The translations under genes were made by a program, and so were the position numbers. The notes under the pieces were generated by a model. The model saw only the letters and a program-made list of their open reading frames with translations. It searched no databases and was not told the origin of the DNA. Of a stretch of 64,000 nt of DNA, positions 28,962 to 64,000 are shown one piece after another. Source of the DNA: Eutreptiella sp. 'Long Island Sound 2002' (taxonomy: Eukaryota > Protista > Euglenida); the NCBI GenBank assembly GCA_964036045.1, contig OZ038379.1, forward strand, positions 9,176,001-9,240,000, written 5' to 3'. Numbering within the stretch: the first letter of the stretch is position 1; every line of letters starts with the position of its first letter.

Positions 28962-29106
28962 GTGCGTGCGTGTCCGTAATGCATTGGTTTGTGTTTCTTT
29001 GCACTTGTCTTAACTTGTGCACATGAAAGTCCCCCAATACAGGGCAGGCCCGACGGTCCCTTTGCGCATTGTGAGGACAGGTACAGCAGCACCCGACGAC
29101 AGGCAG

Positions 29107-29177
29107 CACCACCACCACCACCACCACCACCACCACCACCACCACCACCACCACCACCACCACCACCACCACCACCA
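29107..29177. repeat. (CAC)n microsatellite, ~24 units
   Basis: Directly visible; intronic. Confidence 0.95.
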
Positions 29178-32573: not shown

Positions 32574-34011
32574 GTCCCTGGCCCCTCCCATCTCTGCCCG
32601 TGCCCCCGACGGTTCTCTCTGCCATTGCTCTGGCCTTTGCATCCGCCTGCTCCCGCGCCCCTGACCCTGCCTCACTCTGGGGGGGGGGGGTGGAGGGTGA
32701 GTGGGTGGTTCCGTTCTTGACCGCCCCCCGGCCCGAGGCTAGACCACTGGCTGCTAAGACCTTGGTGACCCCGACTCAACACAAGACCAGCACCCTCAGC
32801 GTGCTGCTTGGTGGGTCGCTGGCCGCACTGCCGTACCAAGCGCATCAGCTGACCCGGCCCCCACCGGGGCTGCGTTTGCCTTACGGTCCGTGTCCCTGGA
32901 AGAGCCCTAACCCCCTGGCCCTCCAGGGCTAGAAGCCCAAAGCCCAGAGCCGCAGCCCCCCAACCCCCCGGCGCATAAGGCCATGAGTGGGTTGGTGGGG
33001 TGCAGCTGGTGAGGGCAGCTGCAAATTACCCCCCCCAAAACATGTGTACCGAGCACGGTACGATGCTGGAAACATGGCATCAGACCCCCCCTGCCCTTAC
33101 CATGAAGATGCTGGACCCTCCCTCTTCCTCCTCTGCCCCTGCCCTTGCCCCTGCACCTCCCCTGATTTGCCTCTGCCCATGGTTCTGCCCCGTTCGCTAC
33201 CCCTGCCCCTGCCTGCCCATTCCTGGAGTGGGATGCAGTGCGCGGAGAGGACATGACGGGCACCATGTCACAGAAAGGCCTGTGGGGAGGTAGGGAGGTG
33301 CTGGATCTGGTGGAAACGACAAGGAGCTGTGTTAACTGCGGCAGGTGCCACCCCAGATCGAAATTTTCGGGAATGAGCCCGGGAATGGGTGGGGGAGGTC
33401 GGTCGACAGCAAAGTGAGCACCGGGAGGGCATGAGGCTGCAGAGGATAGGCTCCTCAGTTTGCAGCTTTGGTCTGAACTCTCAGGGGTGCCAGAGTCCTG
33501 AGTGGTGACTGTGCCGTCAGGAGAGAATTGGCCATCTGGGGTTGTGTGGCCGGGCTGTTGAAAGCCTATGCACGTGCTGTGTTGATGGTGATCTCGCAAC
33601 ATAACGCCCTTACAATGGTATGGTAAGGTATGCACAGAAGCCGATGTTGGTTCAGTATGATTTGCGGCCTCCTGCGCCTCTGTCCCTTCCTCTGCTTTGC
33701 CCCTGCCTCTGCCCCGGTCCCTGCCTGTACCTCTCCTCCTGCCTCTGCCTGTGCCTCTGCGCGTGCCCCTGCCCGTGTCCCTCGTCCCCCCTTGCTGCAA
33801 GGGCTTGGGTGTGGTGGAGACACCCATGTCGCGAGCTTTGGGTGTAGAGGTCGGCTTGGTCAAAGGCAACGTCGGGGTGCCGAGGGGGGGGCGGCCACCC
33901 GCGCTGGAAAGCGGAGACCCAAAGCCACAGCCAAAGCCCATGTTCCTGCCCCTGCCCCCGCCCTTGCCTCTGCCTCTGCCTCGCCCTGCCACTGTTGCTG
34001 CCTCTACCCAG

Positions 34012-34295
34012 GTGCGACCAAGCACAAAGACATTGAGGCTCGCTCCCCAAAGATGGGCAAAGAGGGTGTTGACTCTGCTGCTTCATCATGGGTTTCATGT
34101 GGCAAAGGGGAGAAATCGGTTGGGGGCGCCCCATCCTCCTCCTCTCCACCCTCCTCCTGTGTCAATGCAGAGGACATTGGTGCATCATTCTCTTCTTCGG
34201 ACAAGAAGGGCAGTAGCGGGGATCAGTGGACTCCGGGCCCGAAACAGAAGGGCAAGGCTGTGGAGGTGCAGTCTCCAACATGCATCCGCAATCAG
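34012..34295 (+). CDS. Possible linker exon in the cytoplasmic loop
   Basis: Pyrimidine tract plus cccag|GT (phase 1) and CAG|gtccct (phase 0) bridge 32573 to 36066 in frame. It is dispensable if the 32549 donor is used. Confidence 0.45.
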
Positions 34296-36065
34296 GTCCC
34301 TGTCCCTGCCCCTCTACCCGTGCCTCTACGCCCCTACCCCCTTTTTGCCATTGCCCCTGCCCCTGCCACCGTCCATGCCTACCTGTACCCTTACCCCTCG
34401 TATCCCTCGTCTTAGCATGCTACCCAGTCGTGTTGCCAGTGTTGGGAGTATTGGGCGAGTCTATGCACCTTCAAGGGTGCGGGTAGTCCCACATCCGTGT
34501 GAGGGCGCAGGTAGTCCCCCAAAGTGAGATGCAGCAAGGTGGCATGGGCTGCATGCGGAAGAGCCTCAGTCCCCCCATCAGAGTGAGGGTGCGGGGAGTG
34601 CTCCCCAGGTGAGATGATGAGTTGCCCCTTGCTGCCGGGGTGCGGGTGTGGTGGAGACATCCATGTCGTGCTGCCCCAAACTTTGGTGTGGAGGTGAGCA
34701 TGATCAGCGGTATAGCACAGCTAAGTAGGGGACCGGCCACCTGCGCCGAAACGGGGAGACCCACAGCCAAAGCCACAGCTGAAGCCTCACCCCCCTCCCT
34801 ACCCTGGTCCCTGCCCTCCCCACTGCCCTTGCTGTCCCTTCCACCCCTGCCGCTACCCCGGCTTGTCCCTCCCCCTTGGCCCTTCCCTGGAGAGGAGTGG
34901 CCGCACGAGCAGAAGGAGCCTTTCTGAGCAGAGGGACAACTGTCCCACCTTCACCCACCACCGTTCCCCACCGCATGTAGACAAACAATGTGCACGATGT
35001 TCCCCCGAACAGTGTGCACACCCCGGAACTACCTAGGGGGTGGCATATTTTGTGCTCTTTGAGTCCATAGACGAATGGGTGCGGTGCAAAAGTACAGAGT
35101 TGTCTGTGTTTCCTCTTTGTTCCTTTTCTGCAGTCCACACTTCAAGGCACACCATGAAACTTCTCTGTGGCGATGGCTTTATGTGATTGACAATGACAAT
35201 GTCCGCCAAGAGCATTTGAAGTCTCAAGAGCATAAACCCCAATCAGCTCTGTCACAACAGGCCGGGTCCATGGAGCAAGGAGGGAGGGAGGTTGGGTGGC
35301 CAACACCCCCCCCCCCCCTTCCCACAGGGCTGGGAAGTTTTTGGGGTGCTGTAATCCATGGGGAGCAAGGGCTGAGGGCTGTTGCTATAAACCAGCGGTT
35401 AACGGCAGGGTTTAGGAGTACGTATGCATGCACTCCGGAGCCATGGTGAGGGCTTGGCCAATGAGGTTGCCAGCTAAAAGCAAGGCTGCTGAACCACACT
35501 TCCACAGTGAATCTGATTTGTGCCCTGTAGTATGCACCCCCTTCGGATAAAATACGGTGCAGTGAAACACTAGTCCAGGACAAGGCGAGCGACGGAGTGG
35601 CTGCTAGTGTCCGTAAACGATTAGATGCGCTCTCAATGTACACATCTGGCAAGTCGTGATTGGGCGCAAAGATTCCAACGGGACTGAGCACCTACAGTTC
35701 GAGAATGCCCTGCTGTAGTCCTGCTTGGCAGGCTGCCCCCAAAACCTGGATGGCGGATCCACCAACCCCCCCCCCCCCCCTTCCCCGAAGATAAGCACCA
35801 GGCTGTGTTTATTGAGGGAGTTTTTTTCCGGGAGGGGTGGTTTGGGGCGGTCCTGCGAGGGGCCGCCTGGTCAAATCTGATTCCCGAAGCCGAAAACTGG
35901 GTGAAAATTTGGGGCTGAGTGGGTCTCAGGGCCAACAGACCCCCCTCTCCTCTCATAAATACAGCTTGATCAACACATGCCTGCACCCAACCCCAACATC
36001 CTCCTCCTTCCCTGCCCCGTTCCTTCCCCCATGCCTCCCCCTACCCTGCCCCTGCTTCCGCCTAG

Positions 36066-39000
36066 GGCATCGATCTGGACGTCACCAGCCCGATGAAGGA
36101 GAACCCGGACATGGAGTTCTGGTCGCCCAACAAGACCGAGAGGAAGACCGCCTCGAAGACCACCTCGTTCGCCGCCGCCTTCTGGTCCCCCCGGAAGGAG
36201 GAGAAGGCGGCCCAGGCCGCCGCCGCCGCCTCTGCCTCGTCCGCCTCCGACGCGGCACCGGACATCGAGGCCCGCCCGCCGGCCACGAACAAGGACCCCG
36301 AGGCCACTGCCGCGGCCCCAGAGCCTGAGAGGGAGCCCCCGCTGAAGTTCGAGGAGGTCCGCAAAGAGCAGGCGGTGGCCGCGCCGGCCGTGAGTCTGCT
36401 CAGCAGCGGGGGCCCCTGGCAGGTCGTGCTGGCGGGCGTGAGCGTGGTGCTGTTCGTGCTGTACGCCGTCCTCCTCCACGAGGGCGTGCGCCTGCAGGAC
36501 TGCGCCCGCTTCGACCTCGGCCCGCCCCCCGGCGCCCCCGACGACGGCAGCGCGTCCGACCTCCGGTACGTGTTGGCCAGTGACTACGCCGTCGAGTGCT
36601 CCGGCGGGGACTACCGCGCCGCCCAGGCCTTGGCCGTGCTGTGCCTGTGCGTGTACGGGGCCCTGGGGCCCTTGGCCGCGCCGGTGCTTGGGCGCACGCT
36701 CTGGCGGTCCCGAGAGCAGCAGGCGGCGTTCGGCTTCGTCGTGGCCCAATTCAAGGAGCAGTTCCGGTACTGGGAATCGATCGTGATGCTGCGCACGCTC
36801 CTGATCGTGCTGGTGGTCGCGCTCGCCCCGGGCCCGCAGACGCAGGCCGGCGCGTGCGCGGGGGTGCTCGGGGCGTTCCTGGCGCTACACGCCGCGTGCC
36901 GGCCCAGCCGCTCCCGCCTCGTGGACGCCCTGGAGGGCGTCGCGCTGCTGGCGCTGGTCCTCTGCCTCGTCATTGCCGCCATGTGGCACCACCTCGCCGC
37001 TGCCGCCGCCGCTGCCGCCTCCGCCGCCGCCCTGGCCCCGCCCCCGGCCCTGGAGGTCGCCATCCCGGTGCTCCTGTCCGGCCCCGCGCTCGCCTTCGCC
37101 GCGGCGGTGCTGCTGCCGCTCCTGCGGCCCCTGGTGTGCTGCGGCGCGGTGCGGCGCGGCAGCGCGGCGGAGCCGGAGTACGTCAAGGACCGCGACCCCG
37201 ACGCGGAGATCTTCCGGAAGGCGGTGCCGATCGTGCCGGGGGCCGACGCGCCGCGACCCGCGGAGGCGAAGAGCAAGGCCCACTTCCGCGGCGCCCGCCC
37301 CCCGGCAGTGTGCACCGCCCCCGCGCAGGCGCGCCTGGGGCTGGGGACCCCCGCGTCCGGCCGGTCCGCGCGGCTGAGGACTGGCAGCCCGCGGTCCAAC
37401 ACCGGCACCCCCCGGGGCCTGACGGCGCAGTTCAACACCAGCGGCCGGCACCAGCTCCACCCGCCGGACGTGTGGCTCACGTCCCCGACCTCTGGGCTGC
37501 GCGGGTCCGCCGGGGCCTCGCTGGGCGGGTCCCTCGGGGCCTCGCTGGGCGGGTCCCTGTGGCACCCCGACGCGGCCGAGGCCCCGCGGTCGCCGTACAG
37601 CGCGGGCGCCGCGGCGCTGCCGGGCCAGCCCGGGCGCCCCGGCGCCGGCGCGCATGCGGCGGCCTCGGGATCGCCGGGCCCGGGGTCGCTCCTGAAGCAG
37701 ATCTTCCAGGACGTGATCCTCTCGGACCGCGAGGCGGCGGAGCACCACCCGGCGGAGCATGCGGTGCGAGGCCGGCCGGGCAGTCGGGGGCTGGTGTCCC
37801 TGGCCGACCTCGGCCCCGTGCCCCCGCCGCCCCGGGTCCCGTCCGCCGTGCGCTTCGGCCCCACAGAGACCGTGGGCACCAACACCGACACGTCGACCAG
37901 CTGCAGCTCGCCCGTGTGGCTCCAGGAGTCCGCGCCCGACCTCTCTCCGGTCCGCATCTCCCCCGTGTGGCGGTCCCCGCTGGGCTCAAGTTTTGCCGGG
38001 GCTGCGTCCCCTGCGCGGGAGGCCTCACCCTCGCCGCCCTCGTGGGAAGCCGCCGTGGCACCGAAGGAGGAGGAGGAGGAGGAGAGGAGGGAGCAGGCTC
38101 CTGCAGCTCCAGAGGCACCGGAGGGCGCCGCGGCTGCTCCAGAGGGTCCCGCTGCGGCGCCGCCGGATGAGGATGCGGCACCCGACGACGCTGCTGGTGC
38201 CCCGGAGGATCATGCCGCTGCGGCACCGCCGGATGCGGCTGCGGCACCGGAGGAAGTGGAGGATGCCGCCCTGGCGACGGAGCAGATGCCCGCGGCGATG
38301 GAGGATGCCTCTCCGACCCCCGTGATGGTGGATGCCTCTGCGGTGTCGGAGGATGCCTCTGTGGTGACAGAGCCACCGGCCGCTGCCGCATCAGCAGTGC
38401 GAAATACGCCACCCCCGCCGGCTGCTTCCCTGGAGACTGTGGATGCCGCCGCCTTGCTGAGCAACCCCCCCCCTGCACCAGCCGCTGCCTCAGTGCCGGT
38501 GGGTGACGCCGCTCCGGTGATGGACAACGTCTCCTCTGCGGTGGAAGAGGCTGCAGCAGCAATGAAAGATGCCTCTGCAACACCGGGGGATGCCGCTTCC
38601 GAGAGGAAGGAAGAGGTTTCTGCAGCAACGGAGGATGCCTCTCTGGCGCCGGGGGATGCCTCCCCAAGGGATGCCTGTCTGGCGCCGGGGGGCTCCGCTT
38701 CAACGTTGGGTGGTGCCTCTGCGGCGTCGGGGGATGCTGCTTTGGAGAGACGAGATTCCTCGGTGATAACGGTGGGCTCTGTGGTGATGAAGGATGCCTC
38801 TGCGGTGATGAAGGATGCCTCTGCGGTGTCAGATGCCGCCGCGCCAGGGCTGTGGGGTGCCCTTGCGGCCAGCAGTGGCGCCACTGCGGCGCCGGAGGGC
38901 GCCCCTGCGGCACCGCGCAAGAGCGACGCCTTCCTTCCGACGTTCTGGTTGCCCTTCCTGTCGAAGGGGGATGCGGCTTCGCCGTCGCCACCGCGAATGG

Positions 39001-40757
39001 ATGCCTCTCCAACTCGAGCGGCATCGCCACCTGTGGCCGTGTCGCCTGCCATGGGGTTGGCGGATGACTTGGCCGCCGAGCCGGCAGCCCCACCGCCCGC
39101 AGACGTCCCTCCGATCCCCCGACCCTCGTCCCCGGCTGCTGCCGCAGCGCCGCCGACCGCCTGTCCAGCACCCAGCGATGCGCCCGCGGCGATGGAGGCT
39201 GCTCCTCCCGGGACGGAGGACGCCGCGCGTGCACCGCGCAAGCGCAGTGCGTTCAGGCCGACGTTCCGATTCCCCTTCCTGTCAAAGGGGGCTGCCACTC
39301 CGCCGGCTCTCGATGCCGCATCCCAATTGAACACCCCCGTCCAAGAGGCGCCGCCCCTAATCCCCGCGTCTCCGGCGCTGGAACTGGGGTCCGCCTTGAC
39401 CGAAGGCGCTGCACCCCCACCACCCGCCGCCGACTCACTGCTGCCCGAGCCGTCTACGCCCTCCCTGGCCCCGCTGGATGCCTTTTCCCGTCCCCATGCC
39501 TCACCACCGGGGGCATCACCGCTCCACCCCGGCTCCCTGGCATTGCTACTGCCATGCGACGCCACGCCACAAGACCCCGCGGCCCTGCCGCTGGACCCCG
39601 GCCACGCGCTGGTCCCGCACCAGCCGATTGCGGTGAACTCCGAACCGTCCGCCGCCGCGGCAGTGCGCTCCGCCCTCTCCGGCCGGGCCGCGGCCCCCGC
39701 CAACCCGCTGGCCCTGCCAGGCCCCGCGAAGGTCCCTGCTGCGTCGCCGCCCTACGAGGGCGCGCGCGCCCGGGGCCGCCCGGCGCCGGAGCCGCTGAAC
39801 CCGCTGCTCACCGAGCGCTTCCAGCAGATGAGCATCCTGCGGCACCGCGCGCAGGCGATGCGCAGCCTGGGGCTGGAGGATGAGGCGGAGGCCGGGGACG
39901 GCGGCGCCCCGGAGGAGCCCGCCGGCACCGACGAGCCCCTCCAGACGGACTCCCTCTCCTTCGCGCTGGCCACGACCCCGAACCTCCCCGGGACCGCCGC
40001 CGATGCCGTCCTCACCGAGACCCTCCCCAGCGACGCCTTCCGCTTCAGTTTCTTTTCGCAGCGGAGCTCGTCCGCCGCGCGCCGGCGCGGCTCCGGCGCG
40101 TTCGGCGCGTCCCCCTCGGCCGCTCTGGCCGCGGCGTCCCCCCCGGCCCCGCTGCGGCAGGCCCCCGGGGCCAGCCTGGCCGAGGTCGTGCCGCCGCGGC
40201 GCAACTCCGGCGCCGCCGCCGTCTCCCCCGCGGCCGCCGGGCTCGGACTGGCGGCCGTGTCCCCGGGGGCGATGCCGTTTCACCCCCCCGGCCCCGGTCT
40301 GTCCCCGCCGGCGCTGCCGCGGCCCAACTCTGGGCCCTTTCTGGCCGATGTCGTGCCGCCGCGGCCTGTGTCTCCGCGCGCAATTCCGCGGCGCAACTCC
40401 GCGCCCGGCGCGGCGGTGGCGTCGCCCCCGGTGCTGCTGCGGCGCCCCTCGGGGGTCATGGCCGCGTCCCCCCCCGCCCCCCGCCCGGTGCCGCAGTACG
40501 CCCGGCGCACGTCCGGCCCGGCGCCGCAGTCCAGCCGGCGCAACTCCGGTCTGGTCGCCGCGTTGCCGCCCACCGCGAGGCCGGGGCTCGCCACCGCGTC
40601 CCCCCCGGCCGCGCTGCCCACGCTGGAGCGGGGTGGCTCCGGGGTTTCTGCCGCAAGCCCCTCCGCCCCAGTGGACCGACGCCTGTCCTGGCATTGCATT
40701 GCCGGGCTGCCGCCCCTCAATCTGTTCCCCTCTGAGGACCCACCGGACAGTCCGTAG
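36066..40757 (+). CDS. Terminal exon: ~6 TM helices plus long Ala/Pro/Ser-rich tail
   Basis: gcctag|GGC acceptor (phase 0), ORF to TAG 40757. LASDYAVEC...Y and FGFVVAQFKEQFRYWESIVMLR motifs resemble the TRP/PKD2-like C-terminal TM region of protist giant proteins (family from memory). Confidence 0.9.
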   Translation, partial: GIDLDVTSPMKENPDMEFWSPNKTERKTASKTTSFAAAFWSPRKEEKAAQAAAAASASSASDAAPDIEARPPATNKDPEATAAAPEPEREPPLKFEEVRKEQAVAAPAVSLLSSGGPWQVVLAGVSVVLFVLYAVLLHEGVRLQDCARFDLGPPPGAPDDGSASDLRYVLASDYAVECSGGDYRAAQALAVLCLCVYGALGPLAAPVLGRTLWRSREQQAAFGFVVAQFKEQFRYWESIVMLRTLLIVLVVALAPGPQTQAGACAGVLGAFLALHAACRPSRSRLVDALEGVALLALVLCLVIAAMWHHLAAAAAAAASAAALAPPPALEVAIPVLLSGPALAFAAAVLLPLLRPLVCCGAVRRGSAAEPEYVKDRDPDAEIFRKAVPIVPGADAPRPAEAKSKAHFRGARPPAVCTAPAQARLGLGTPASGRSARLRTGSPRSNTGTPRGLTAQFNTSGRHQLHPPDVWLTSPTSGLRGSAGASLGGSLGASLGGSLWHPDAAEAPRSPYSAGAAALPGQPGRPGAGAHAAASGSPGPGSLLKQIFQDVILSDREAAEHHPAEHAVRGRPGSRGLVSLADLGPVPPPPRVPSAVRFGPTETVGTNTDTSTSCSSPVWLQESAPDLSPVRISPVWRSPLGSSFAGAASPAREASPSPPSWEAAVAPKEEEEEERREQAPAAPEAPEGAAAAPEGPAAAPPDEDAAPDDAAGAPEDHAAAAPPDAAAAPEEVEDAALATEQMPAAMEDASPTPVMVDASAVSEDASVVTEPPAAAASAVRNTPPPPAASLETVDAAALLSNPPPAPAAASVPVGDAAPVMDNVSSAVEEAAAAMKDASATPGDAASERKEEVSAATEDASLAPGDASPRDACLAPGGSASTLGGASAASGDAALERRDSSVITVGSVVMKDASAVMKDASAVSDAAAPGLWGALAASSGATAAPEGAPAAPRKSDAFLPTFWLPFLSKGDAASPSPPRMDASPTRAASPPVAVSPAMGLADDLAAEPAAPPPADVPPIPRPSSPAAAAAPPTACPAPSDAPAAMEAAPPGTEDAARAPRKRSAFRPTFRFPFLSKGAATPPALDAASQLNTPVQEAPPLIPASPALELGSALTEGAAPPPPAADSLLPEPSTPSLAPLDAFSRPHASPPGASPLHPGSLALLLPCDATPQDPAALPLDPGHALVPHQPIAVNSEPSAAAAVRSALSGRAAAPANPLALPGPAKVPAASPPYEGARARGRPAPEPLNPLLTERFQQMSILRHRAQAMRSLGLEDEAEAGDGGAPEEPAGTDEPLQTDSLSFALATTPNLPGTAADAVLTETLPSDAFRFSFFSQRSSSAARRRGSGAFGASPSAALAAASPPAPLRQAPGASLAEVVPPRRNSGAAAVSPAAAGLGLAAVSPGAMPFHPPGPGLSPPALPRPNSGPFLADVVPPRPVSPRAIPRRNSAPGAAVASPPVLLRRPSGVMAASPPAPRPVPQYARRTSGPAPQSSRRNSGLVAALPPTARPGLATASPPAALPTLERGGSGVSAASPSAPVDRRLSWHCIAGLPPLNLFPSEDPPDSP

Positions 40758-54305: not shown

Positions 54306-54635
54306 CCGGTTTTGCTTTGTTATAGGTGGATGCTGGATTATGATAATGGGGAATCACCGGACGTCCTGTACATTCACAATGCAACAAATCAGCAGTGGGG
54401 GGGGCGGTGTCAGCGCCCCGGGCGCGCGCCGGGCATCTTTTTTGACCGGTGCCCCACCGGTGACCTTTTAGGGGGCGCACTAAGTGCACGGAGTGCAACT
54501 ATTTGGGTGTCTAGCCGTCCCAGAACCCCGGGAAGGTGTGCAGTGCAAGGCCATCTACTTGGGGGGCTTCTCCATCAGTGGGTAAATCTGGGGCTGAAGT
54601 TGGGATAGTTAATGGAAAAGTAGCGTGCCGGGCTT

Positions 54636-55568
54636 TGGAAGGTCGCATTTCGCAACATGTGGCTTAGCACCTGGGGACCATGGCAAGATACGGTAACGGA
54701 ATGGTGGAACAGGGCGTCGGCGGCGGACCTACACCATGTTTCCTGCCTTCGCATACCACAGTCCCTATGGGACCACATCCCCCGAACAATGCGGGTAGAC
54801 CTTAGGGAGCGTGTGGCCTGGCACCAGTACCACGCCCTACATGGTGTGTGCCAACTGCGCGGCCAACTCACCATGCCCCCCCGCGACCCACAGGTGTCGC
54901 CCACGCTATCCACAGCGGTGCCGGCATGGTACACAAAGCTGCGCCCAAGAGCTGTACGACCGAACCCCACGGACTCTGTCCTCCGCAATCAAGTAGGGTA
55001 CACAGGGCCCCGGGAGAGAACATCGCGGCGGGATGGCCGCGTCTCTCAAGAGACGTCCCACCGTAGAGCGGTGCGCACATGGGACCGGCCGCAGTCGTAC
55101 CATACCAGGTCATGGGCGGTGAAATATCTCGACCAGTGCCTCTGTCCCAGTACCGCAGACCCACGGGCACAACAAGTAGCTTCGGCAATGCAGTATCTGG
55201 CCCAACCTTGGTTTCTGCATCAGCGTGCCGTTCTCGGGGCCTCACTGATGGATTCATACCGCGACGTGCTAGATGATCTGGTGCGGCAATCACGGCACTG
55301 GCACACCCTTCTGCGACGTGCTAGAGTGTGGACCACCTCCGCAGACCAGCACTACCAGCGGCATAACCGAAGGATTCAGCTCTTTTCGGTGATGAGCCAA
55401 TTGTGGGCATCTGAGCGCGCCGCCCACCGGGTGGAGTCGCCTCTGCCTAAACGTCAGTGCCGCAAAAGGCCCGGCATCCTGGGCCAACGCCCGCCACCGG
55501 TCATGGCCCCTGCAAAGCGACGAAAGCTTGTCTCTCTTGAGGACCTGTGGGGAATGGCACACACGTGA
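54636..55568 (+). pseudogene. C-terminal ~310 codons of the truncated element's ORF; no recognised domain
   Basis: Frame is open from the TSD edge (WKVAFRNMWLSTW...) to TGA 55568; Trp/Arg-rich; ends with basic PAKRRK. Confidence 0.65.
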
Positions 55569-55674
55569 TCCAGCATGTCTTAACCTCCTTAAAACTTACG
55601 CATTATAGGCTTGCCATATGGCGTGGCGGTTTTGCCTACCGCATCAGAGAGCCCTCTAGTATACGCATGTGAAC

Positions 55675-55740
55675 CACTAGTTGTGCCTCGTCTCAACTTT
55701 TGTTTGCGTCTCCAATGTTTAGGCAGTTTTCCTGTCTTTG
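55675..55740 (+). repeat. Split direct repeat A1
   Basis: Identical to 61931..61996 (cactagttgtgcctcg...cctgtctttg). Confidence 0.95.
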
Positions 55741-55753
55741 TTTTTGTTAACCC

Positions 55754-56386
55754 ATGGACGGGGTTGAGCAGCCAAGCCAGAACCAACAAGAGTCAACCGA
55801 GGAGCGGCTGGCGGCACAAGCCAAGGAAATTCAAGAACTCAGAGAGCAACTCGCCCGAGTGGCGGTGAAGGAGGGGCCCCGCCTGCCCCCACTGAGCGTG
55901 CCAGAAGTAAACCGAGCCCTCGAGAAGCCTCAGTTGGCACAGTGGATGAGACTCATGCTGTCCAACATCAAGGCGTACGTACGCCTTAGAGCTGGTGAGG
56001 TGGGGGAGATCCCCCGACCAAGTGAGTTCGGCGGCCAGGCGACGGAGGCCGCAGTCGACCCAGGAGAGCAGCTGGCGTGGAGGGTCTGGGACTGCGTGTC
56101 CCAGTCCCAGGCGGCGTATGCCCGCAGGTATGCAGGGACGCAAGGAAAAACCAGCTCCGAGTCCAACCAGTACACCACGCTGGAGGAGGCATGGAAGGAA
56201 CAAGGATCGGCGTTCACGTGGCGGAGCGTCAAGTTCAGGGAGGTGGGAGGAGTACTGCAGTGGCAGTCGACGCAGGGCGAGTGGATCCCTGTGGACTCGC
56301 CACCGAGCGGAGGGTGCCAGAGGTGCGCGCAGCGGGGCTCCCCCGACGAACGCCACTGGCACTTTAGATGCCCACACTGGTCCTGA
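55754..56386 (+). CDS. gag: Gag-like ORF1 (210 aa)
   Basis: ATG 13 nt after A1. N-terminal coiled-coil-like segment (EERLAAQAKEIQELREQLARV) and C-terminal C-x2-C-x9-H-x4-C knuckle. Confidence 0.75.
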   Translation: MDGVEQPSQNQQESTEERLAAQAKEIQELREQLARVAVKEGPRLPPLSVPEVNRALEKPQLAQWMRLMLSNIKAYVRLRAGEVGEIPRPSEFGGQATEAAVDPGEQLAWRVWDCVSQSQAAYARRYAGTQGKTSSESNQYTTLEEAWKEQGSAFTWRSVKFREVGGVLQWQSTQGEWIPVDSPPSGGCQRCAQRGSPDERHWHFRCPHWS

Positions 56387-56445
56387 CAGGACCGGCTGGA
56401 GCCCGGACCGGCCGCCCCGGGCTCCGGCATTGCGGACGCGGCGGC
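56384..56445 (+). promoter_or_regulatory. Putative stop-codon readthrough signal (UGA-C, 8-nt spacer, H-type pseudoknot)
   Basis: Stem 1 56395-56406/56417-56428 (12 bp, one G-U); stem 2 56411-56416/56440-56445 (6 bp). No other stop lies between gag and YR. Confidence 0.6.
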
Positions 56446-56521
56446 AGAGCTGCGGGCGCTCGCCCGCCGGTGGGAGACAGCAGCCCGGTCAGACGACCCC
56501 TGCTCACCAGAGGAAAGTGCC

Positions 56522-58327
56522 ATGCAGTCCTGGAGACCGAGAACCCGCTCGCAGTACGCATCCCGACTCCGGGCCTTGGCGGCTTACGCGGACCGCACGA
56601 GCCCGCCTGATACAGCCGCAGCACTGGCAGGCCTCCTGGCAGAGCGGGCGCAAGCCGGCGCTACAGCGTCGGCCCTGCGGGGTATTACCTCCGCGGTCAG
56701 AGCCGTGGAGGACCTCCAGTGGCTGCCCCCAACAGTCACCACCCTGCACAAACGGATTGCGGCGGGAGCCGCATCCTCGGGCTCTCAGCCCTATCTGTCC
56801 CCAGCAGGCTTGGTCCAGCTGGTCGAAAAGGCCAGAGACTCCAGACACGGAGCGGTGTTCAGCGCTTTGGCCATCATCAGCTGGGTATGCCACCTGCGGG
56901 TGGGCGAGGCAGCTGGCATCAGGGTTACTGACCTGGCTATGCCAGGCTTTATCCAGTTTTGGAACTCCAAGACAGGGGAGGAGGGGTACACCACCCGCCC
57001 CCTGTACAGGTATGCGGACGGCGTCCGGGCGTGGCTTCATGGCCACATGGTTTCGCTGGGCCGGTCCTCAGACATGCTCGTCTGGCAGTCAGGGGAAGCG
57101 GGGTTGGAGGCAGGCATGGCCGACACCCTGGCGAGCACCGCCCACTTCCGAGCCAGGTGGCACGCCCTGCGCAGGGGAGGCGCCGCAGCGACTTGGGCCC
57201 GTAAACCAGACCTCGCCTACTACAAATGGTGGGGCAGATGGCAGAGCACGGCCGTGGCAATGCAATACGGCACCAAATGGTCAGACCCGGGAGTCGTTGC
57301 CCCTACGGTGCTGCCCGCATGGTCCCGTGACCAGGGGCCTTTGCCGAATCCGGAACGCGTGGGCGTCCTGGCCCTGTGGGGATCCCCGATGTTCCCCAGT
57401 ATCGCGAACGCCCTCAACACCCCGACCAAGCGCAAGCCGAGGCGTCCGCGAGGTCAGGAACTGGAGTCCACCGCGAACGGCACAGTTGGGAGCGGAGGCG
57501 ACGGAGACCAAGCCGCGACCGAGCTGGAGGAGTCCACCGGGGATGGCTCTGCTGAGATGGGCCCGGGGCCTGACACGGCTCCTACCCTCCCTCCACTTCC
57601 GCCTTTGGCCTCTGCCATTGAGCGCGGCGCCGTGTCTCGGGAAGATGCGGGTCAGCTGTGCACGGTGGCGGGGCCATTGGCTGCCGTGGGGGGGGGCGCG
57701 TGCGGACCAGGGACGGCAGCCGGGCCCATCAATGTCGATTCCGACGTGGACACCGACGACCACAGCGAGGATTCCGGAAGCGAGCCCTCTGGCGAATTCG
57801 CAGTCGGCAGCACCAGGGGCTCCCCCGGGCGTCGACAGGCCGGAGTTGCCAGGTTCGTTGGACGGGAGCGTAAACCGTGGTCCTCCAGGGCAGCCGTTGG
57901 CCCTGTCAGAGGAGGACCCGCGGCGGGCTCGAAGGCTGGAGTGGTGGGCCGTATCCACCGCACATACAAGGGGCCGCGTCGCGCTAAGGTGGTCCTGGAT
58001 GGTACGCAGGCCGTGCGATCCCGAGCCCCCGCACGCCGTCAAGCTGGGAGACCTCGTTTGGCCCAGCAGATCGGAACGCCGCAGCCCAAGCGCATCAAGC
58101 TCGGGCAGGGCGGGCATGTCCGGGCGCAGGAGGCGCAAGGCCTGGTGGAGGGTGCCTTCGTGGCTGCAGCTGAGCGTCTCAAGGCCAAGGCTTGGGGGAG
58201 GGCGGGACCAGTGGCGTCGCCCCCCCCCCCCTCTGTAAGGGTCCCGACAGGGGTGGGAGGGTGCAGGACCAGCCCCCCCTCTTCCTGGAGTTCATGCAGG
58301 CGCTCACCCCCCATTTTCACTGGATAG
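56522..58327 (+). CDS. Tyrosine recombinase ORF2 with low-complexity C-terminal extension; frame also open from 56387
   Basis: Catalytic set R (LRVGEA), K (SKTG), HxxR (HALRRGG), W (GRW), Y (AMQY) is all present. Confidence 0.92.
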   Translation: MQSWRPRTRSQYASRLRALAAYADRTSPPDTAAALAGLLAERAQAGATASALRGITSAVRAVEDLQWLPPTVTTLHKRIAAGAASSGSQPYLSPAGLVQLVEKARDSRHGAVFSALAIISWVCHLRVGEAAGIRVTDLAMPGFIQFWNSKTGEEGYTTRPLYRYADGVRAWLHGHMVSLGRSSDMLVWQSGEAGLEAGMADTLASTAHFRARWHALRRGGAAATWARKPDLAYYKWWGRWQSTAVAMQYGTKWSDPGVVAPTVLPAWSRDQGPLPNPERVGVLALWGSPMFPSIANALNTPTKRKPRRPRGQELESTANGTVGSGGDGDQAATELEESTGDGSAEMGPGPDTAPTLPPLPPLASAIERGAVSREDAGQLCTVAGPLAAVGGGACGPGTAAGPINVDSDVDTDDHSEDSGSEPSGEFAVGSTRGSPGRRQAGVARFVGRERKPWSSRAAVGPVRGGPAAGSKAGVVGRIHRTYKGPRRAKVVLDGTQAVRSRAPARRQAGRPRLAQQIGTPQPKRIKLGQGGHVRAQEAQGLVEGAFVAAAERLKAKAWGRAGPVASPPPPSVRVPTGVGGCRTSPPSSWSSCRRSPPIFTG

Positions 58328-60144
58328 CCGAGCGGGAACGTTGTGGCTTGTGGATGGTTGCGAAGAGGGTGGATCTGTGGTTGAATAGAGTATTCGATAC
58401 AGCCGAGGATTTCCGCTTGCAAGGGGCTCTGCCCGCTCTCCTGGGCGCCTTGCGCAAGCTCCACCCGGACGCCTGGGAGGCATGCCTCCATATCAACACC
58501 TCCCCCATTCCGCGGTTCATGGGGGGGGTCGAGGATGCCATTTTGGACCGGGGATTGGGACCGGTAGGCTCCCACCAGCTACCAGACGATCTGTGGGACG
58601 CCGTCGTACCGCCCTTCTACCACGGAGGGCTCCAGGATTTTGACGTCGAGCGGGAGTGGCAAGACGGGGATAGGGTGGTCCGAGGGGCAACCAGATGGGT
58701 GTCGCAGCAGGTCCAGAGGATAGTGCAGGCGTTGAGGGGGGCGGGGGTCTACGAGCAGCCGGCTGACCCCCCCCCCCCCCCCACATGTTACCCCTTCGTC
58801 ATCCCCAAATCATCCGAGAAGGTATCCTTGATCTTGAGTTGCGTCAAGATCAACAAGAGTGACGGGGGCAAGCCCCCCACTTTCAGATTGGATTCCTGGG
58901 AGGATTTGGCTAGGTCCTTGTCGGCGTTCCCGCCTGATGTGGACCTCTACGGCCTCCACATCGACCTCAAAAATGCGTTCTGGAGCTTTTGCTTGCCCCA
59001 GGGTGCGCGCCAGGTTTTTCGCTTCCGGCCCGCCCCCGGGGCTCCGCCTGTGGCGCTGTCGCGCCTACCGTTTGGCTGGAAATACAGCCCCTATCTGTGC
59101 CAAACCAGTTTGGCTCGCATTCTCCAGGGGGTACTGCCCCCCGAGATACTCCTTGTGCACTACCTCGATGACTTTTTGCTCGTCTTCACTGATAGGGAGG
59201 TGCTCAGGGAGGCGGGACCTAAGAGTGTCCTGGACCCGGTGCCTGTGGCGTCATTCCTGGGGAAGGAGCTCGACTTGCAGGCTAGGCAGATCAAGAGCCA
59301 TGAACAAGCACTGCTCCAGTTGTGGGCGGGATGGCTGAGGCTGGCGGTTGGCGCAGGCAACGACCGGCACCTCCAAAGCTTCCTGGGTTTACTGAATTGG
59401 CATGTGCGTCCGAGGGGATTGGGTTGTCCTTTCGCGGCGGGCGCCTACTGCTGGTTGCGCTGGGGTCGGACGGTGGGGGGGGCCAAACAGCCGGCCCAGG
59501 GCTTCCCCCTGAAAATGCTGGACAGCCTCGCGACATTGGTGGCGCTGGCGGCCGAGCCCTGGCGGGCGCCGGGCGGGGAGGCCTGGCGGCAATTGAGGAC
59601 CCTCCAGTTTGGGACTGAGGATAGGCTTTCGCGATCATCTCTCTGGTGCGGGGGCGTCGTCATCTGCGTCGATGGAGCGCGCGATGCGGGGTGCTGGAGG
59701 GTTGGGGCGCTCGTGCCGGGGGTGGGTGTGCGTACGCATGTGACACCTCCTGCCCGCTTCGCCAGCCAGCAAACCACGGAACTGAGGGGAGTGGCGTGGG
59801 CTGTCAGGTTTGCAGTCAGGACGGGACACCGAGCTGTTACGGTCTGTAGCGACAGCGAGGCGGCCATTGCTCAGGTCCTCAGGCTGCGCGCGACTAGCCA
59901 CCTGACCCACCACCAAACGGTCCTTCGGTCATTGGCTAGAATCCTGTGGGTATCAGGGATCGTGCTCCGCCTCGTGTGGGTGCCCTCGGCGCTTCAGCCG
60001 GGAGACCCTATGTCCAGGGTGACGTCAGTGTTCGGAGGCTCACAGGCCAGAGCGGAAGTCGAGGCTTGGTGCACGTGGGATGCATTGCTGGAGAATCTGG
60101 GCGAGGCTCGGGTGAGGGGGGTGGTGTGTCTCCGAGGATGCTAG
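58174..60144 (+). CDS. pol: Reverse transcriptase / RNase H ORF3
   Basis: PFVIPK, IDLKNAFW, LPFGWKYSP, YLDD, FLG motifs; RNase H CVDGA / TELRG / CSDSE / PGDPMSR. Frame is open from 58174; first ATG at 58294. Confidence 0.93.
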   Translation, partial: ASQGQGLGEGGTSGVAPPPLCKGPDRGGRVQDQPPLFLEFMQALTPHFHWIAERERCGLWMVAKRVDLWLNRVFDTAEDFRLQGALPALLGALRKLHPDAWEACLHINTSPIPRFMGGVEDAILDRGLGPVGSHQLPDDLWDAVVPPFYHGGLQDFDVEREWQDGDRVVRGATRWVSQQVQRIVQALRGAGVYEQPADPPPPPTCYPFVIPKSSEKVSLILSCVKINKSDGGKPPTFRLDSWEDLARSLSAFPPDVDLYGLHIDLKNAFWSFCLPQGARQVFRFRPAPGAPPVALSRLPFGWKYSPYLCQTSLARILQGVLPPEILLVHYLDDFLLVFTDREVLREAGPKSVLDPVPVASFLGKELDLQARQIKSHEQALLQLWAGWLRLAVGAGNDRHLQSFLGLLNWHVRPRGLGCPFAAGAYCWLRWGRTVGGAKQPAQGFPLKMLDSLATLVALAAEPWRAPGGEAWRQLRTLQFGTEDRLSRSSLWCGGVVICVDGARDAGCWRVGALVPGVGVRTHVTPPARFASQQTTELRGVAWAVRFAVRTGHRAVTVCSDSEAAIAQVLRLRATSHLTHHQTVLRSLARILWVSGIVLRLVWVPSALQPGDPMSRVTSVFGGSQARAEVEAWCTWDALLENLGEARVRGVVCLRGC

Positions 60145-60220
60145 CCCCCCCCCCCCCAGCGGGCCGGCGGCGACAGAGTTTGCCCCCTCCATGTAGCAAC
60201 CTTTTTTGCTTTCCGCACCT

Positions 60221-60730
60221 ATGACCAAGCGTCGGGGCTCGCGTGGGGCCCACAAGCGACGGGGTTCCCGTGGAGCCCACCGGAAGGGTCGCCATGGCGG
60301 ACAGCGGCACCGGCGTTCCGCGGACGCCCAGCAGCGCCGGGCGGCGAAGTGGAGCGGCGTGCTCCGCACCCGCCTCCGTGGCAGGCTGGCACGCCTGCCC
60401 ATCCGCCGGGTGCTGCTCGGCAACGGGGTGCGCCTGTGCCCCCAGTGCCCCCTCCCTGACGACAGGGAGGGGTTTTTGGAGAGAGCGGCCAGGGACGTGG
60501 CCGCACGCGTGGGGGGCACGCCGCACCGCCGCACGGCCCCCGGCGGCAGCGCCGCCAAGCCCCCAGGGCGGCATGCCTGCCGCCAGGTCTGGGAGGTGAG
60601 GCTGCCGGAGGGAGCCGCTGTGGTCTCCCTAACGGACTGGAACCAGGGACGCAGGGTTGCGGTACCCTATATATGGATCCAGGCCCGGTATGGGCTGGTG
60701 TTGCAAATTGCCCGCCTCTTCAACCCCTGA
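60221..60730 (+). CDS. ORF4, basic 169-aa protein of unknown function
   Basis: ATG start; KRRGSRGAH x2 with 4/4 nucleotide differences synonymous; followed by a non-repetitive C-terminal region with CPQC. Confidence 0.6.
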   Translation: MTKRRGSRGAHKRRGSRGAHRKGRHGGQRHRRSADAQQRRAAKWSGVLRTRLRGRLARLPIRRVLLGNGVRLCPQCPLPDDREGFLERAARDVAARVGGTPHRRTAPGGSAAKPPGRHACRQVWEVRLPEGAAVVSLTDWNQGRRVAVPYIWIQARYGLVLQIARLFNP

Positions 60731-61889
60731 GGTTTGACGCTCGTCGTCGTTGACTGAGCCTGCCCACTGCAGTGGGTGACCCTGACGGCGTGGCCGCTGG
60801 GTGTTGCTTTTGCTTTGTCTTTTTGGGCCGTGTCGGTCCGCGTTCCGCTGGAGCTGACGGCCGGGAGCTGGGGTTGACAGCCTTTTTACCGTCGGTGAGA
60901 CTGGGCGACCGTCGTAATCGCCTGTATCTGCCCTCCGCAGGGGGTGACTCTGACGGCGTGGCCGCTGGGTGCGCCTGTCTTGTTGTCTCTTTATTTGGTT
61001 GGCGGCACGGCCGCTGGGTGCTTTATTTGTTTCGCATTTTTGTTGGGCCTACCTCACTCCGCATCCAGCTGAAGCTGACGGCAGGATGGTGGGATATGCC
61101 CGCCCTCTTTGTCCGGGGGACACGGCGACCGTCGTGATCGCCTGTATCTGCCCACTGTGGTGACTGTCCAGGGCGGCGTGGCCGCTGGAGGCGTCCGCCG
61201 GGGGTGGCGCTGCTATTATGGGCCTGGTGCCCGGCATTTTTCCTGCCCTCCCCGCACTTCGACCTCTGGCCTTTGCCATTGAGCGCGGCGCCGTGTCTCG
61301 GGAAGATGCGGGTCAGCAGTGCACGGTGGCGGGTCCTCTGGTCGTCGTGGGGGGTGCTGCGGTTTAGTCTGCCTTTTTGCTTGTTTGCACGTTCCTCTGG
61401 AGCAGGGATTGGTTGTGGGACCTGCGGTGAGAGAACCGGGTGCGGCGGGGACCTTTTTGGGCGTGCCTCACTCCGATTCCAACTGGGACTGAAGGCCGGT
61501 TGGTGCGATTTGACCACCTTCTTTGTACGTGGGCGCGGCGACCGTCGTGATCGCCTGTATCTGCCCGCTGTGGTGGCTGTCCATGGCGGCGTGGCCGCTG
61601 AAGGAGTCTGCCGGGGTGACGCTGCTGATGTGGACCCGGTGCCCGACACGAATCCTGACCTCCCTCCGCTTCAGCTTCTGGATTCTGCCGTTGAGCGCGG
61701 CGCCGTGTCTTGGGTGGATGCGTGTCGGCAGTGCACGGTGGCGGGTCCCCTGGGTGTAGTGGGGGGGGGGGGGTGCTTCTGTTTGTTCTACCTTTTCGCT
61801 TGGTTACTACCTCAGTTCACATTCCTCTGGGGCTGAGATCCGGTTGTGGGCCCTGTGGTGGGAGAGCTGGGTACGGCGGAGAATGAATA

Positions 61890-61996
61890 CCCAAGTCCTG
61901 TGCAGTTTTCTTGTGCTCTGCTTGTGCAAACACTAGTTGTGCCTCGTCTCAACTTTTGTTTGCGTCTCCAATGTTTAGGCAGTTTTCCTGTCTTTG
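61890..61996 (+). repeat. B1-A2 junction (internal copy of the end-to-start junction)
   Basis: cccaagtcc...gtgcaaac directly abuts cactagttg..., sharing one C. Confidence 0.95.
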
Positions 61997-62235
61997 CCCG
62001 CCCACCCACCCACTGACCGACTGACCCCCTGAGAGCACCTGCCCTTTCCTTTCCTTTTTGAAACCGATCCCCTCGGGTGGAGTGGGGGATCTTACCGTGC
62101 TGCAGCGTGTGGGCCAGGGTATAGGGTCAGGGTCAGTTTCAGAGTGGGGTCCCGCATCCAGCGGAGTGGTCCGCAGCGCACCCGTCCATACAACCGCCGG
62201 TATTTCCGGCCTTGGTGATACTTCAGTACTGCTAT

Positions 62236-62277
62236 CCCAAGTCCTGTGCAGTTTTCTTGTGCTCTGCTTGTGCAAAC
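62236..62277 (+). repeat. Split direct repeat B2 (element 3' end)
   Basis: Identical to 61890..61931. Confidence 0.95.
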
Positions 62278-64000
62278 CTGGGTCTTTGCCATGTGCCCCG
62301 CGTTGCGGGGATCCACTGTATCATATGCTGGAGACGCCCACTTTGCCAAGCACATTCTTGAGTACTCTTTGAACTTCTGGAGTCAGCCAAAAAAAAAAAA
62401 GTAGCGTGCCGGGCGCGTGCCGGGCAAACATTCCCCCGAGGTTGTTACACACTCCAAAGCGGATTCCAACCCTCATGGCCATTGCCTTGCTATCTGTAGG
62501 AGACAATGTCCTTTTGTGGATTATTTGTATGAGCTCGCACTTGAACCCCTGAACCCCGCATCCGCACTCTCGGATCATCGCGAATTAGTAGCATGGCTTA
62601 TTAGTAACGGCCCACATAGTGCTGCATATTGCTACAAGTTGGGCCCCAATCGGGTCAAGGCAGAATGCCTATGTCCCTAGAGGCAGCCACCATCTTCCAA
62701 CACACTCACGCCACAACAGACTGTGCTTGGCCACGGCCACCAACCACCAAGGATATGAAGACCCTTGTGACGCATAAATGCAGGGTGGTTTCCTATCTTC
62801 CTCCCTGGCTAGGTTTCATAGCGTGGGCAGTGCGCACGTAACCCAACAACATCCCCTGTGCCCCTATAGCACGGATTTCCGTCCTCCGTGTGCCAACACC
62901 CCCACGACTCACCTGCAGCTCTTCAGAGGCAATACTCCCGCCAGAAAAAGTGGCACACATATTGCCTGTTGCCTGTTTCTGAGTAGAGCTGAACATGCAT
63001 TCTAACGGGCAATTCCCGGCTCATTTTGTGGTTCATATGCTATCGAGTCTGCATGACTTGTTTTGTGCCAAGCATCCTTTGCACAGTACTTTGGGGGCGA
63101 GGGAACCGTCACTTGGGGTATGTTCCCTCGGGTTGCAAGGATACCGTTGCGTGCAGGCGATTACTATGCAAGGGGTGGGGGGTATAAAAAAATCGTTCCA
63201 TATCCACAACTCCTGCTGAGGTCACTCTCAGGCTTCACCACTTTTGTGGTATGAAACAGAATTCATACCAGGGAGCACTGGAGCCTTACACTCACAAACT
63301 GAATGCCCTGAAAGGTGTGGCATCTCTGCTATACTTGATTATGTATACTACTACCCCCTGCGGGTGTACAATTGGGCAGATGGTAGGGGCCTGTAGAATG
63401 TACTAGTGGTCAAGACCAGGCACCTGCCATGCCTGGCATCTGCTGGAAGCAGTCGTGGGTGAAATATCATTGAAACTGGTTTCAGAATGTTTGTTTTGTC
63501 GTGACACCTGAATAGCCAATGGCTGGGGCGTACATAGGCATCATTGCCTTGGCAGTCCATGTGTCTACAGCATTCCACAGCATTCAGTGTCCAATGATGA
63601 TCTGTGGGTTGGGCAGGCCTCGGCCTTGCCAAAGCGTCAAAGGGGCCCTGAAGCTAGTTGAGTGCACACGTGTTTTCCACACCCTATGTTGAATGCACAT
63701 CCAAACGCCAGTCTGTCAGGGCAAATGAGCCAAGGCCTGATAGCCCACTTGGATTGCAAAGATGGCTTGAGCTTTGTCCATGATCACAGAGCATAGGGCA
63801 TGGGTCGCCCTGGACAATGCCAAGGCGCTGTATGCGGTCCGATTTCGTTCACCTCTGTGGGTTTTTCTTTGAGAATGGTGCATCCTGTGTGGAGGCTGCT
63901 GTACTATCTGATGCATGCAGAGCACTACACTATTTGCTTGCCTATTGCGACGCCACAGTGGGTTTGGCACCCTTCAATATGGGACCTGATGCTGTGCACT

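What the first reader, a model, noticed from the sequence alone, without database searches (positions are those of the whole stretch)
56384..56445. Retrovirus-style stop-codon readthrough signal fusing Gag to a tyrosine recombinase
Seen: gag (55754) and YR (56522) are in the same frame. The only stop between them is TGA 56384-86 and the following 45 codons are open. The context is TGA-CAG, then an 8-nt spacer (caggaccg), a 12-bp stem (gctggagcccgg/ccgggctccggc), and loop bases gccgcc that pair with ggcggc at 56440-45, giving an H-type pseudoknot. Known: MuLV gag-pol readthrough uses a stop, 8-nt spacer and pseudoknot, and UGA-C is the leakiest stop context. Inference: an 857-aa Gag-YR fusion is made at low frequency, which would package the recombinase into particles. 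I know of no such description for YR retrotransposons.
Basis: partly seen in the sequence, partly recalled or inferred. Interest (0 to 1): 0.88.

Follow-up and report, generated by a model that had tools for sequence, protein, structure and literature searches.

The report
Leaky stop joins Gag to recombinase
A multi-copy jumping gene of a single-celled eukaryote has its coat-like gene and its DNA-recombinase gene in one reading frame, split by a single conserved stop codon with a predicted RNA stem 8 bases behind it, so ribosomes likely read through the stop now and then and would make a coat-recombinase fusion.

Summary
The element is a VIPER-like YR retrotransposon (gag-YR-RT/RH, split direct repeats) in a probably euglenozoan genome.

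The stop is not a private mutation: 17 of 19 Gag relatives reaching the motif end at the same residue, down to 40% identity. The 45 codons after it are coding: they hold a conserved helix, and the AUG at 56522 is absent in 46 of 72 relatives. Stem 1 looks selected: 1 of 24 stem positions varies (G-C to G-U) against 12 of 23 unpaired ones. One divergent relative is compatible with a different 17-bp stem, also 8 nt after the stop (0 of 1500 shuffles).

The pseudoknot's second stem is not established: its end pair is often broken. Readthrough and packaging are inferred, not measured; Candida Tca2 shows that this anatomy can mislead. T. cruzi VIPER also has gag-TGA-YR in frame, but with its own AUG. 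This scan earlier found gag-stop-pol candidates in Ngaro/DIRS elements of other genomes; none joined gag to YR. Readthrough about 0.7.

The parts
55665..55740 (+). Repeat A1 (5' split direct repeat), T-rich tract and AG dinucleotides ahead of the gag ATG
   Evidence: 96% identical to 61920-61996; T fraction 0.5 upstream of AG 55721
55754..56386 (+). gag-like ORF, 210 aa, C-terminal C-X2-C-X9-H-X4-C motif, ends in TGA
   Evidence: 47 homologues; 'gag' rests on position and the Cys/His box, no Pfam hit
56378..56394 (+). Predicted 7-bp hairpin over the stop codon (stop partly in the loop); kept in the listed variants
   Evidence: pair probability 0.92-0.95
56384..56386 (+). Conserved in-frame TGA followed by C: candidate readthrough codon
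56387..56394 (+). 8-nt spacer (5 of 8 purines); variable at 56392 and 56394
56395..56428 (+). Stem 1: 56395-406 paired with 56417-428, 12 bp, 10-nt loop; the only listed variant turns G-C into G-U
56411..56445 (+). Possible stem 2 (56411-16 with 56440-45) of an H-type pseudoknot; 5-bp core, end pair often broken; 11-nt loop 56429-39 highly variable
56438..56485 (+). Conserved helix (residues 18-33 of the YR frame) upstream of the first AUG
   Evidence: (pLDDT about 91 for residues 21-30)
56522..56524 (+). First AUG after the stop (residue 46); inside a predicted helix, not conserved across subfamilies
56387..58327 (+). YR frame, 646 codons: recombinase (about residues 20-295; R171, K195, H259-x-x-R262, W285, Y294) and a low-complexity tail
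   Evidence: Cre, E 1.6e-4; XerA Z 11.2
58174..60144 (+). RT/RNase H ORF in the -1 frame, overlapping the end of the YR frame by 154 nt
   Evidence: (RVT_1 E 1.7e-10, RVT_3 E 0.014)
61890..62277 (+). 3' split direct repeats: B1 61890-931, A2 61920-996, B2 62236-277

Best explanation
This is a VIPER-like tyrosine-recombinase retrotransposon whose gag and recombinase genes lie in one frame across a conserved UGA, and ribosomes likely read through that stop at low frequency, helped by a predicted stable stem 8 nt downstream, which would make a minor Gag-recombinase fusion beside abundant Gag. Shown here: frame, stop conservation, coding linker, conserved stem 1. Inferred: the stem at the mRNA entry channel slows termination so that a near-cognate tRNA decodes UGA-C (as measured in MuLV and alphaviruses); the product is 857 aa in this copy; the Gag part would carry the recombinase into the particle or RNP to meet the circular cDNA and would keep its level below that of Gag. 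A pseudoknot through stem 2 is possible (about 0.4) but not needed for this reading.
For: (1) Stop conserved: of 48 Gag hits, 19 reach the C-terminal motif; 17 end exactly at it, from 97% to 40% identity, 1 stops two residues early, 1 has lost the stop and runs into another frame, and none reads on in the YR frame. No variant is listed in the TGA in 7 runs laid. (2) Frame conserved: off-frame protein records crossing the junction keep one frame from gag end to YR helix in P0012, P0014, P0058 (close) and, read by eye, in P0050, P0086, P0087, P0088, P0176, P0190 (divergent). (3) Linker coding: a helix at residues 18-33 is aligned across relatives down to about 27% identity and predicted with high confidence; most full-length alignments to Cre, XerA and lambda Int start at or before model residue 41. 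Met46 is absent in 46 of 72 records, and the subfamily at 60-70% identity has Ile there. No AUG lies between the stop and 56522 in any frame. (4) Stem 1 selected: 1 of 24 positions varies (G-C to G-U) against 12 of 23 unpaired ones, Fisher p = 0.0003; two CpGs inside stem 1 are fixed while all four fully unpaired CpGs vary. (5) Covariation: P0190 is compatible with a 17-bp stem of unrelated sequence starting exactly 8 nt after the stop, 8 forced Watson-Crick pairs, 0 of 1500 codon shuffles; P0039 gives a C-run/G-run stem, 9 of 1500. (6) TGA is not a general sense codon: 0 TGA against 42 TGG inside the YR and RT frames; no SECIS family hit over 55600-62400. (7) Single-ORF gag-YR-RT copies of TATE exist in Bodo saltans (PMC6681497), so YR joined to Gag has a precedent.
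Against: No protein, ribosome or reporter data. Stem conservation is not significant at third codon positions alone (1 of 8 against 4 of 7, p = 0.12; stems 1+2 p = 0.33). The variant tables are incomplete (68 rows hidden; 56429 listed there is missing) and contigs are not independent copies. In the back-translation test only 3 of 15 records reach p < 0.05 (P0190, P0039, P0102) and P0127 is borderline (77 of 1500); the window's own family scores as chance there, so the test is weak, and the D-subfamily record P0176 shows no forced stem. Five crossing records change frame at the junction (P0022, P0039, P0084, P0101, P0102). Decayed copies show a sense codon at the stop (P0101; a loose end in X2), and some divergent copies carry a second in-frame TAG two codons on (X1, X9). 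P0127 has A, not C, after the TGA. Several distant YR families have a called start upstream of the helix, and T. cruzi VIPER has ATG directly after its gag TGA (read by eye), which fits reinitiation. In Candida Tca2 the same anatomy (UGA, 8 nt, predicted pseudoknot) did not give readthrough in a yeast reporter (PMC2194720, abstract and passages).
Confidence: 0.7

Rival explanations
1. The recombinase is translated on its own: by reinitiation after the gag stop, from a shorter (for instance spliced-leader trans-spliced or internally started) RNA, at the AUG at 56522 or at a near-cognate codon (CTG at codons 4 and 22, ATT at 15); the stem would aid start selection or RNA processing.
For: Host is probably euglenozoan (Atlas lead), a group with trans-splicing (PMC6681497 passage for trypanosomatids). 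The AUG has G at -3. T. cruzi VIPER has TGA-ATG. Tca2 has a cryptic junction promoter. Several distant families have a Met before the helix.
Against: The AUG would cut off the conserved helix and sits inside another; 46 of 72 relatives lack it. No T-rich tract precedes any AG at the junction (T fraction 0.07-0.23 against 0.43-0.5 before gag). Independent initiation does not explain why the frame and the 8-nt distance to the stop are kept.
Confidence: 0.17
2. An in-frame intron removes the stop, so the Gag-YR fusion is made by splicing. TGA-CAG fits both a 3' AG acceptor and the N3-CAG donor of euglenid nonconventional introns.
For: The stop plus CAG matches 5'-N3CDG (PMC12501133, abstract and passages). 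49 nonconventional-type and 55 GT-AG in-frame candidates exist on paper.
Against: The motif fits 8% of all positions. The only partner for a donor at the stop gives a 21-nt intron with no further pairing. The CAG is not kept in divergent subfamilies. No joints were found in either lay, and the one RNA-library contig (X16, 155 nt, depth 2) runs colinear across 56352-56454 with the stop (it may be DNA).
Confidence: 0.08
3. The stem serves something other than translation (packaging, dimerisation, reverse transcription) or is a by-product of G+C-rich sequence, and YR arises only from basal UGA-C leak.
For: Folding z-scores are weak; third-position tests are not significant; Tca2 precedent.
Against: Different stems at the same 8-nt distance from the stop in the window and in P0190; unique site in the coding region.
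Confidence: 0.05

Closest known systems
VIPER and TATE (VIPER-like YR retrotransposons of kinetoplastids; PMC6681497, PMC5146736)
   Same: Order gag, YR, RT/RH; split direct repeats A1...B1-A2-B2. T. cruzi VIPER has gag (169-1509) and YR (1510-2517) abutting in one frame, with a single TGA by my reading of the supplement. Two B. saltans TATE copies are one ORF.
   Different: T. cruzi VIPER has ATG directly after the TGA and its RT ORF overlaps the whole YR gene; here no AUG follows for 45 codons, an 8-nt spacer and stem follow the stop, the RT ORF overlaps only the YR tail, and 240 nt lie between A2 and B2. The passages I searched in these papers do not mention readthrough. No tree was built.
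Moloney MuLV gag-pol readthrough (type III; as described in PMC3159437 and PMC2194720)
   Same: Stop at the end of gag, 8-nt spacer, compact G+C-rich structure, in-frame enzyme downstream.
   Different: UGA-C instead of UAG-G; second stem unproven; downstream product is a tyrosine recombinase, and RT is not in this frame.
Type II UGA readthrough of alphaviruses, tobraviruses, furoviruses and Drosophila kelch (PMC3159437)
   Same: UGA (mostly UGA-C), 7-9-nt spacer, stem of 12 bp or more.
   Different: Those stems mostly close long loops, and the context is CGG or CUA; here it is CAG with a 10-nt loop.
Candida albicans Tca2 gag-UGA-pol (PMC2194720)
   Same: Retrotransposon with UGA, 8-nt spacer and predicted pseudoknot.
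   Different: Tca2 is an LTR element with a DDE integrase; its flanks did not direct readthrough in yeast, which is the main warning for this case.

Membership tests
VIPER-like YR retrotransposons | ORF order gag, YR, RT/RH | tested here: met
   'gag' by position and Cys/His box only
VIPER-like YR retrotransposons | Tyrosine recombinase with R, K, HxxR, H/W, Y | tested here: met
   Pfam itself gave no hit
VIPER-like YR retrotransposons | Split direct repeats A1...B1-A2-B2 | tested here: met
   repeats are short (about 70 and 42 nt) and A2 and B2 are 240 nt apart
VIPER-like YR retrotransposons | RT/RH or YR groups with VIPER and TATE in a tree | not tested
VIPER-like YR retrotransposons | Kinetoplastid host | tested here: inconclusive
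   Atlas clusters for the RT point to Euglenozoa on 3 records each; no genome held
MuLV-type (type III) readthrough signal | UAG-G stop context | tested here: not met
   UGA-C
MuLV-type (type III) readthrough signal | 8-nt spacer before the structure | tested here: met
   5 of 8 purines
MuLV-type (type III) readthrough signal | Compact H-type pseudoknot | tested here: inconclusive
   stem 2 complementary in the window; 2 of 12 positions vary and break pairs, p = 0.07 against unpaired; not shown in other subfamilies
Type II UGA readthrough signal | UGA followed by C | tested here: met
   window; C in 4 of 5 records where the base is forced, A in P0127
Type II UGA readthrough signal | CGG or CUA after the stop | tested here: not met
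   CAG in the window and close copies
Type II UGA readthrough signal | Conserved 3' stem about 8 nt downstream | tested here: met
Programmed stop-codon readthrough (any type) | Measured readthrough that depends on the cis signal | not testable with these tools
   needs reporter, ribosome profiling or mass spectrometry
Selenocysteine UGA | SECIS element | tested here: inconclusive
   no SECIS family among Rfam matches over 55600-62400; a divergent SECIS would be missed

The most novel reading that the evidence does not exclude
VIPER-like retrotransposons load their site-specific recombinase by programmed, structure-stimulated UGA readthrough as a Gag-YR fusion, a recoding use not found in my searches for any tyrosine recombinase or for any euglenozoan element; the in-frame gag-TGA-YR junction reaches from this family to T. 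cruzi VIPER, and a pseudoknot tunes the level.
Probability: 0.45. Interest if true: 0.8.

Novelty: new variant of a known kind. Interest (0 to 1): 0.64.

Why it matters
How YR retrotransposons express and package their recombinase is open: no protease is described for them and their ORFs overlap or abut. A conserved leaky stop gives a concrete, cheap-to-test answer (Gag-YR fusion at a set ratio) and supplies natural stem variants for a reporter test. It would extend structure-stimulated readthrough to a recombinase gene and probably to Euglenozoa, and it draws attention to the in-frame gag/YR junction of T. cruzi VIPER.

Tried and rejected
No DNA loci of relatives could be fetched: no own genome; metagenome scans 0 of 173 and 0 of 591 candidates; viral 0 of 43 and 0 of 254; prokaryote genomes 0 of 63. 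So no DNA alignment, RNAalifold or covariance model was possible, and covariation rests on variant tables and off-frame protein records.

Copy-specific nonsense mutation: rejected. Host-wide UGA reassignment: rejected. -1 frameshift at this site: no slippery heptamer ahead of the stem by inspection, and YR is in frame 0. Natural fused Gag-YR proteins: the 'longer' search gave 1 hit, a frameshifted copy (weak evidence by the tool's own note); among 246 stored proteins 3 score for both gag end and YR core, all decayed (P0079 with an internal deletion, P0101, P0102).

Sequence search of solved structures gave only XerA at E 0.19. Rfam gave no relevant match. The wide structural search was not run. 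Literature searches for readthrough in YR elements and term look-ups in PMC6681497, PMC12278014, PMC3783388, PMC3266345, PMC5633606, PMC8547959 and PMC8226300 found no such description. Lorenzi 2006, Goodwin and Poulter, and Poulter and Butler 2015 were not read and may comment on it.

Full report
Observation. A 210-codon ORF from 55754 ends in a Cys/His box and TGA at 56384-86. The same frame stays open for 646 more codons, the first AUG being codon 46 (56522). After the stop come 8 nt, a 12-bp stem (56395-406/56417-428, one G-U) with a 10-nt loop, and 11 nt later six bases complementary to the loop. Stem 1 forms with probability 0.99. This geometry occurs once among 4306 start positions of the coding region and in 3 of 2000 shuffles (criteria chosen after the fact). 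The overall folding energy is ordinary for the base composition (z -1.5 and -1.1).

The element. The downstream protein folds like Cre, XerA and lambda integrase (Foldseek E 1.6e-4; Z about 10-11; model pLDDT 60) and has R171, K195, H259-x-x-R262, W285 and Y294 (read from the alignment). An RT/RNase H ORF (58174-60144) overlaps its end in the -1 frame. Short split direct repeats A1...B1-A2...B2 flank about 6.6 kb. Order and repeats are those of VIPER and TATE (PMC6681497; parts 2 and 3 of 9 read). No tree was built, so I call it VIPER-like. The host is probably a euglenozoan; this rests on Atlas clusters with few named members. The family is large: one Gag cluster stands for 244 sequences, and a YR profile finds 852 representatives, of which the best 150 were listed.

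Is the stop a family trait? Yes. Of 48 Gag hits, 19 reach the C-terminal motif. 17 end exactly there, from 97% down to 40% identity; one stops two residues early; one lost the stop and runs into another frame. Only cluster representatives were read. No variant in the TGA is listed in the two lays (8 run slots, 7 different runs). The search for longer Gag proteins found one frameshifted copy. Against this: two decayed copies read a sense codon at the stop position (P0101; an X2 loose end).

Is the linker translated? Most likely. A helix at residues 18-33 is aligned across relatives down to about 27% identity and is one of the best-predicted parts of the model, while Met46 lies inside the next helix. 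Most full-length structural alignments start at or before residue 41; XerD starts at 46. Of 72 records aligned over this place, 26 have Met, mostly records of the window's own subfamilies that begin there, and 46 do not; the subfamily at 60-70% identity has Ile. No AUG lies between the stop and 56522 in any frame. A complete recombinase therefore needs readthrough, splicing or a non-AUG start.

Frame in relatives. No DNA of relatives could be fetched. I used protein records that were called in another frame across the junction. Nine keep one frame from gag end to YR helix: P0012, P0014, P0058 by script, and P0050, P0086, P0087, P0088, P0176, P0190 by eye. Five change frame, by different amounts and mostly in C or G runs (P0022, P0039, P0084, P0101, P0102). 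All such records come from damaged copies, so this is supporting, not decisive.

Is the RNA structure selected? In close copies, listed variants fall at 12 of 23 unpaired positions, at 1 of 24 in stem 1 (56425, G-C to G-U) and at 2 of 12 in stem 2. Stem 1 against unpaired gives p = 0.0003, and many loop changes alter the protein. With third codon positions alone the contrast is not significant (p = 0.12). The tables are incomplete: 68 rows were hidden, and a variant listed there is missing. In divergent copies, back-translation of 15 records was tested for forced pairs. P0190, whose YR is clearly diverged from the window's, is compatible with a 17-bp stem of different sequence beginning exactly 8 nt after the stop (8 forced pairs, 0 of 1500 shuffles). 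P0039 and P0102 give a C-run/G-run stem (9 and 56 of 1500), P0127 is borderline (77), and 11 records show nothing, among them the window's own family, so the test has little power. Stem 2 is weaker. Position 56440 is A or C in about 40% of the depth in X1, X4 and X9, leaving 5 bp; 56443 varies rarely; a local hairpin competes. I could not show it in other subfamilies.

Mechanism. The best reading is programmed UGA readthrough stimulated by a 3' stem (0.7). An 8-nt spacer puts the stem at the mRNA entry channel, as proposed for MuLV and found for many UGA sites with stems of 12 bp or more (PMC3159437, passages). The fusion would tie recombinase level to Gag and carry it with the RNA and cDNA; both steps are inferred. 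TGA is not a general sense codon here (0 TGA against 42 TGG in the YR and RT frames), and no SECIS was matched.

Rivals. Independent initiation (0.17) gains from T. cruzi VIPER, where gag and YR abut in one frame (PMC5146736 passage; supplement table) with ATG directly after the TGA (supplement read by eye), from called starts upstream of the helix in distant families, and from Tca2, where the same anatomy gave no readthrough in yeast (PMC2194720, abstract and passages). Splicing (0.08): TGA-CAG fits the euglenid nonconventional donor (PMC12501133, abstract and passages), but the motif is common, the only partner gives an unpaired 21-nt intron, CAG is not kept in divergent copies, and the single RNA-library contig is colinear (depth 2, may be DNA). 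Some divergent copies carry a second in-frame TAG; they are probably dead copies but do not help the case.

Known and new. Readthrough of a gag stop is known from MuLV and proposed for Tca2, and single-ORF gag-YR-RT TATE copies exist in B. saltans. Six full-text searches and term look-ups in seven YR-element or related papers found no description of readthrough in YR retrotransposons. The library lacks most subscription papers; I did not read Lorenzi 2006, Goodwin and Poulter, or Poulter and Butler 2015, and five alignment supplements of PMC6681497 could not be read. Earlier AI notes of this scan report gag-stop-pol candidates in Ngaro- and DIRS-type elements of other genomes (not checked by me, used as leads to three papers). 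None concerns a gag-YR junction, and the sequence and place look-ups were empty.

Verdict. Real, conserved and above chance; probably a structure-stimulated readthrough site that makes Gag-YR; pseudoknot unproven; unmeasured. New variant of a known kind, interest 0.64.

Noticed in passing
PMC6681497 supplementary file 1, part 5; coordinates in PMC5146736: Read by eye: in T. cruzi VIPER the gag ORF ends TGA directly followed by the YR ATG in the same frame. Ten codons before it lies an A AAA AAC heptamer followed after about 7 nt by a G+C-rich stem, and the RT/RH ORF (from 1386) is in the -1 frame: a candidate -1 frameshift from gag into RT.
   Followed up: partly
window 58219-58295: In the YR/RT overlap a 12-C run is followed by G- and C-rich tracts that could pair; RT is in the -1 frame. 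How RT is expressed (frameshift, own RNA, ATG at about 58294 after a pyrimidine tract and AG) is open.
   Followed up: no
window 56378-56394: A 7-bp hairpin covers the stop codon; the two spacer variants (56392 C>T, 56394 G>A) both keep it.
   Followed up: partly
loose ends in runs X1 and X9 behind 56389: A divergent subfamily shows a C-run after the stop region and, in some copies, a second in-frame TAG two codons after the TGA.
   Followed up: partly
window 57523-57700, 61184-61361, 61596-61773: A 178-nt stretch of the YR tail recurs twice, 82% and 75% alike, in a 412-nt tandem duplication in the 3' region.
   Followed up: no
window 60197-60730 and 54624-55568 (+): Two further ORFs (177 and 314 codons stop to stop) beside RT and upstream of the element, with no Pfam hit.
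   Followed up: no
protein records P0002, P0005, P0007 and others: Many sister YR records end at 450 aa rather than 601 from the Met; the tail has homopolymer runs, so the 857-aa length may differ between copies or reflect assembly slips. Longer forms were outside that search's length limit.
   Followed up: no
window 22626-40757: Very long G+C-rich open frames (1385, 824 and 1563 codons) on the + strand, apparently large exons of a host membrane or surface protein gene.
   Followed up: no
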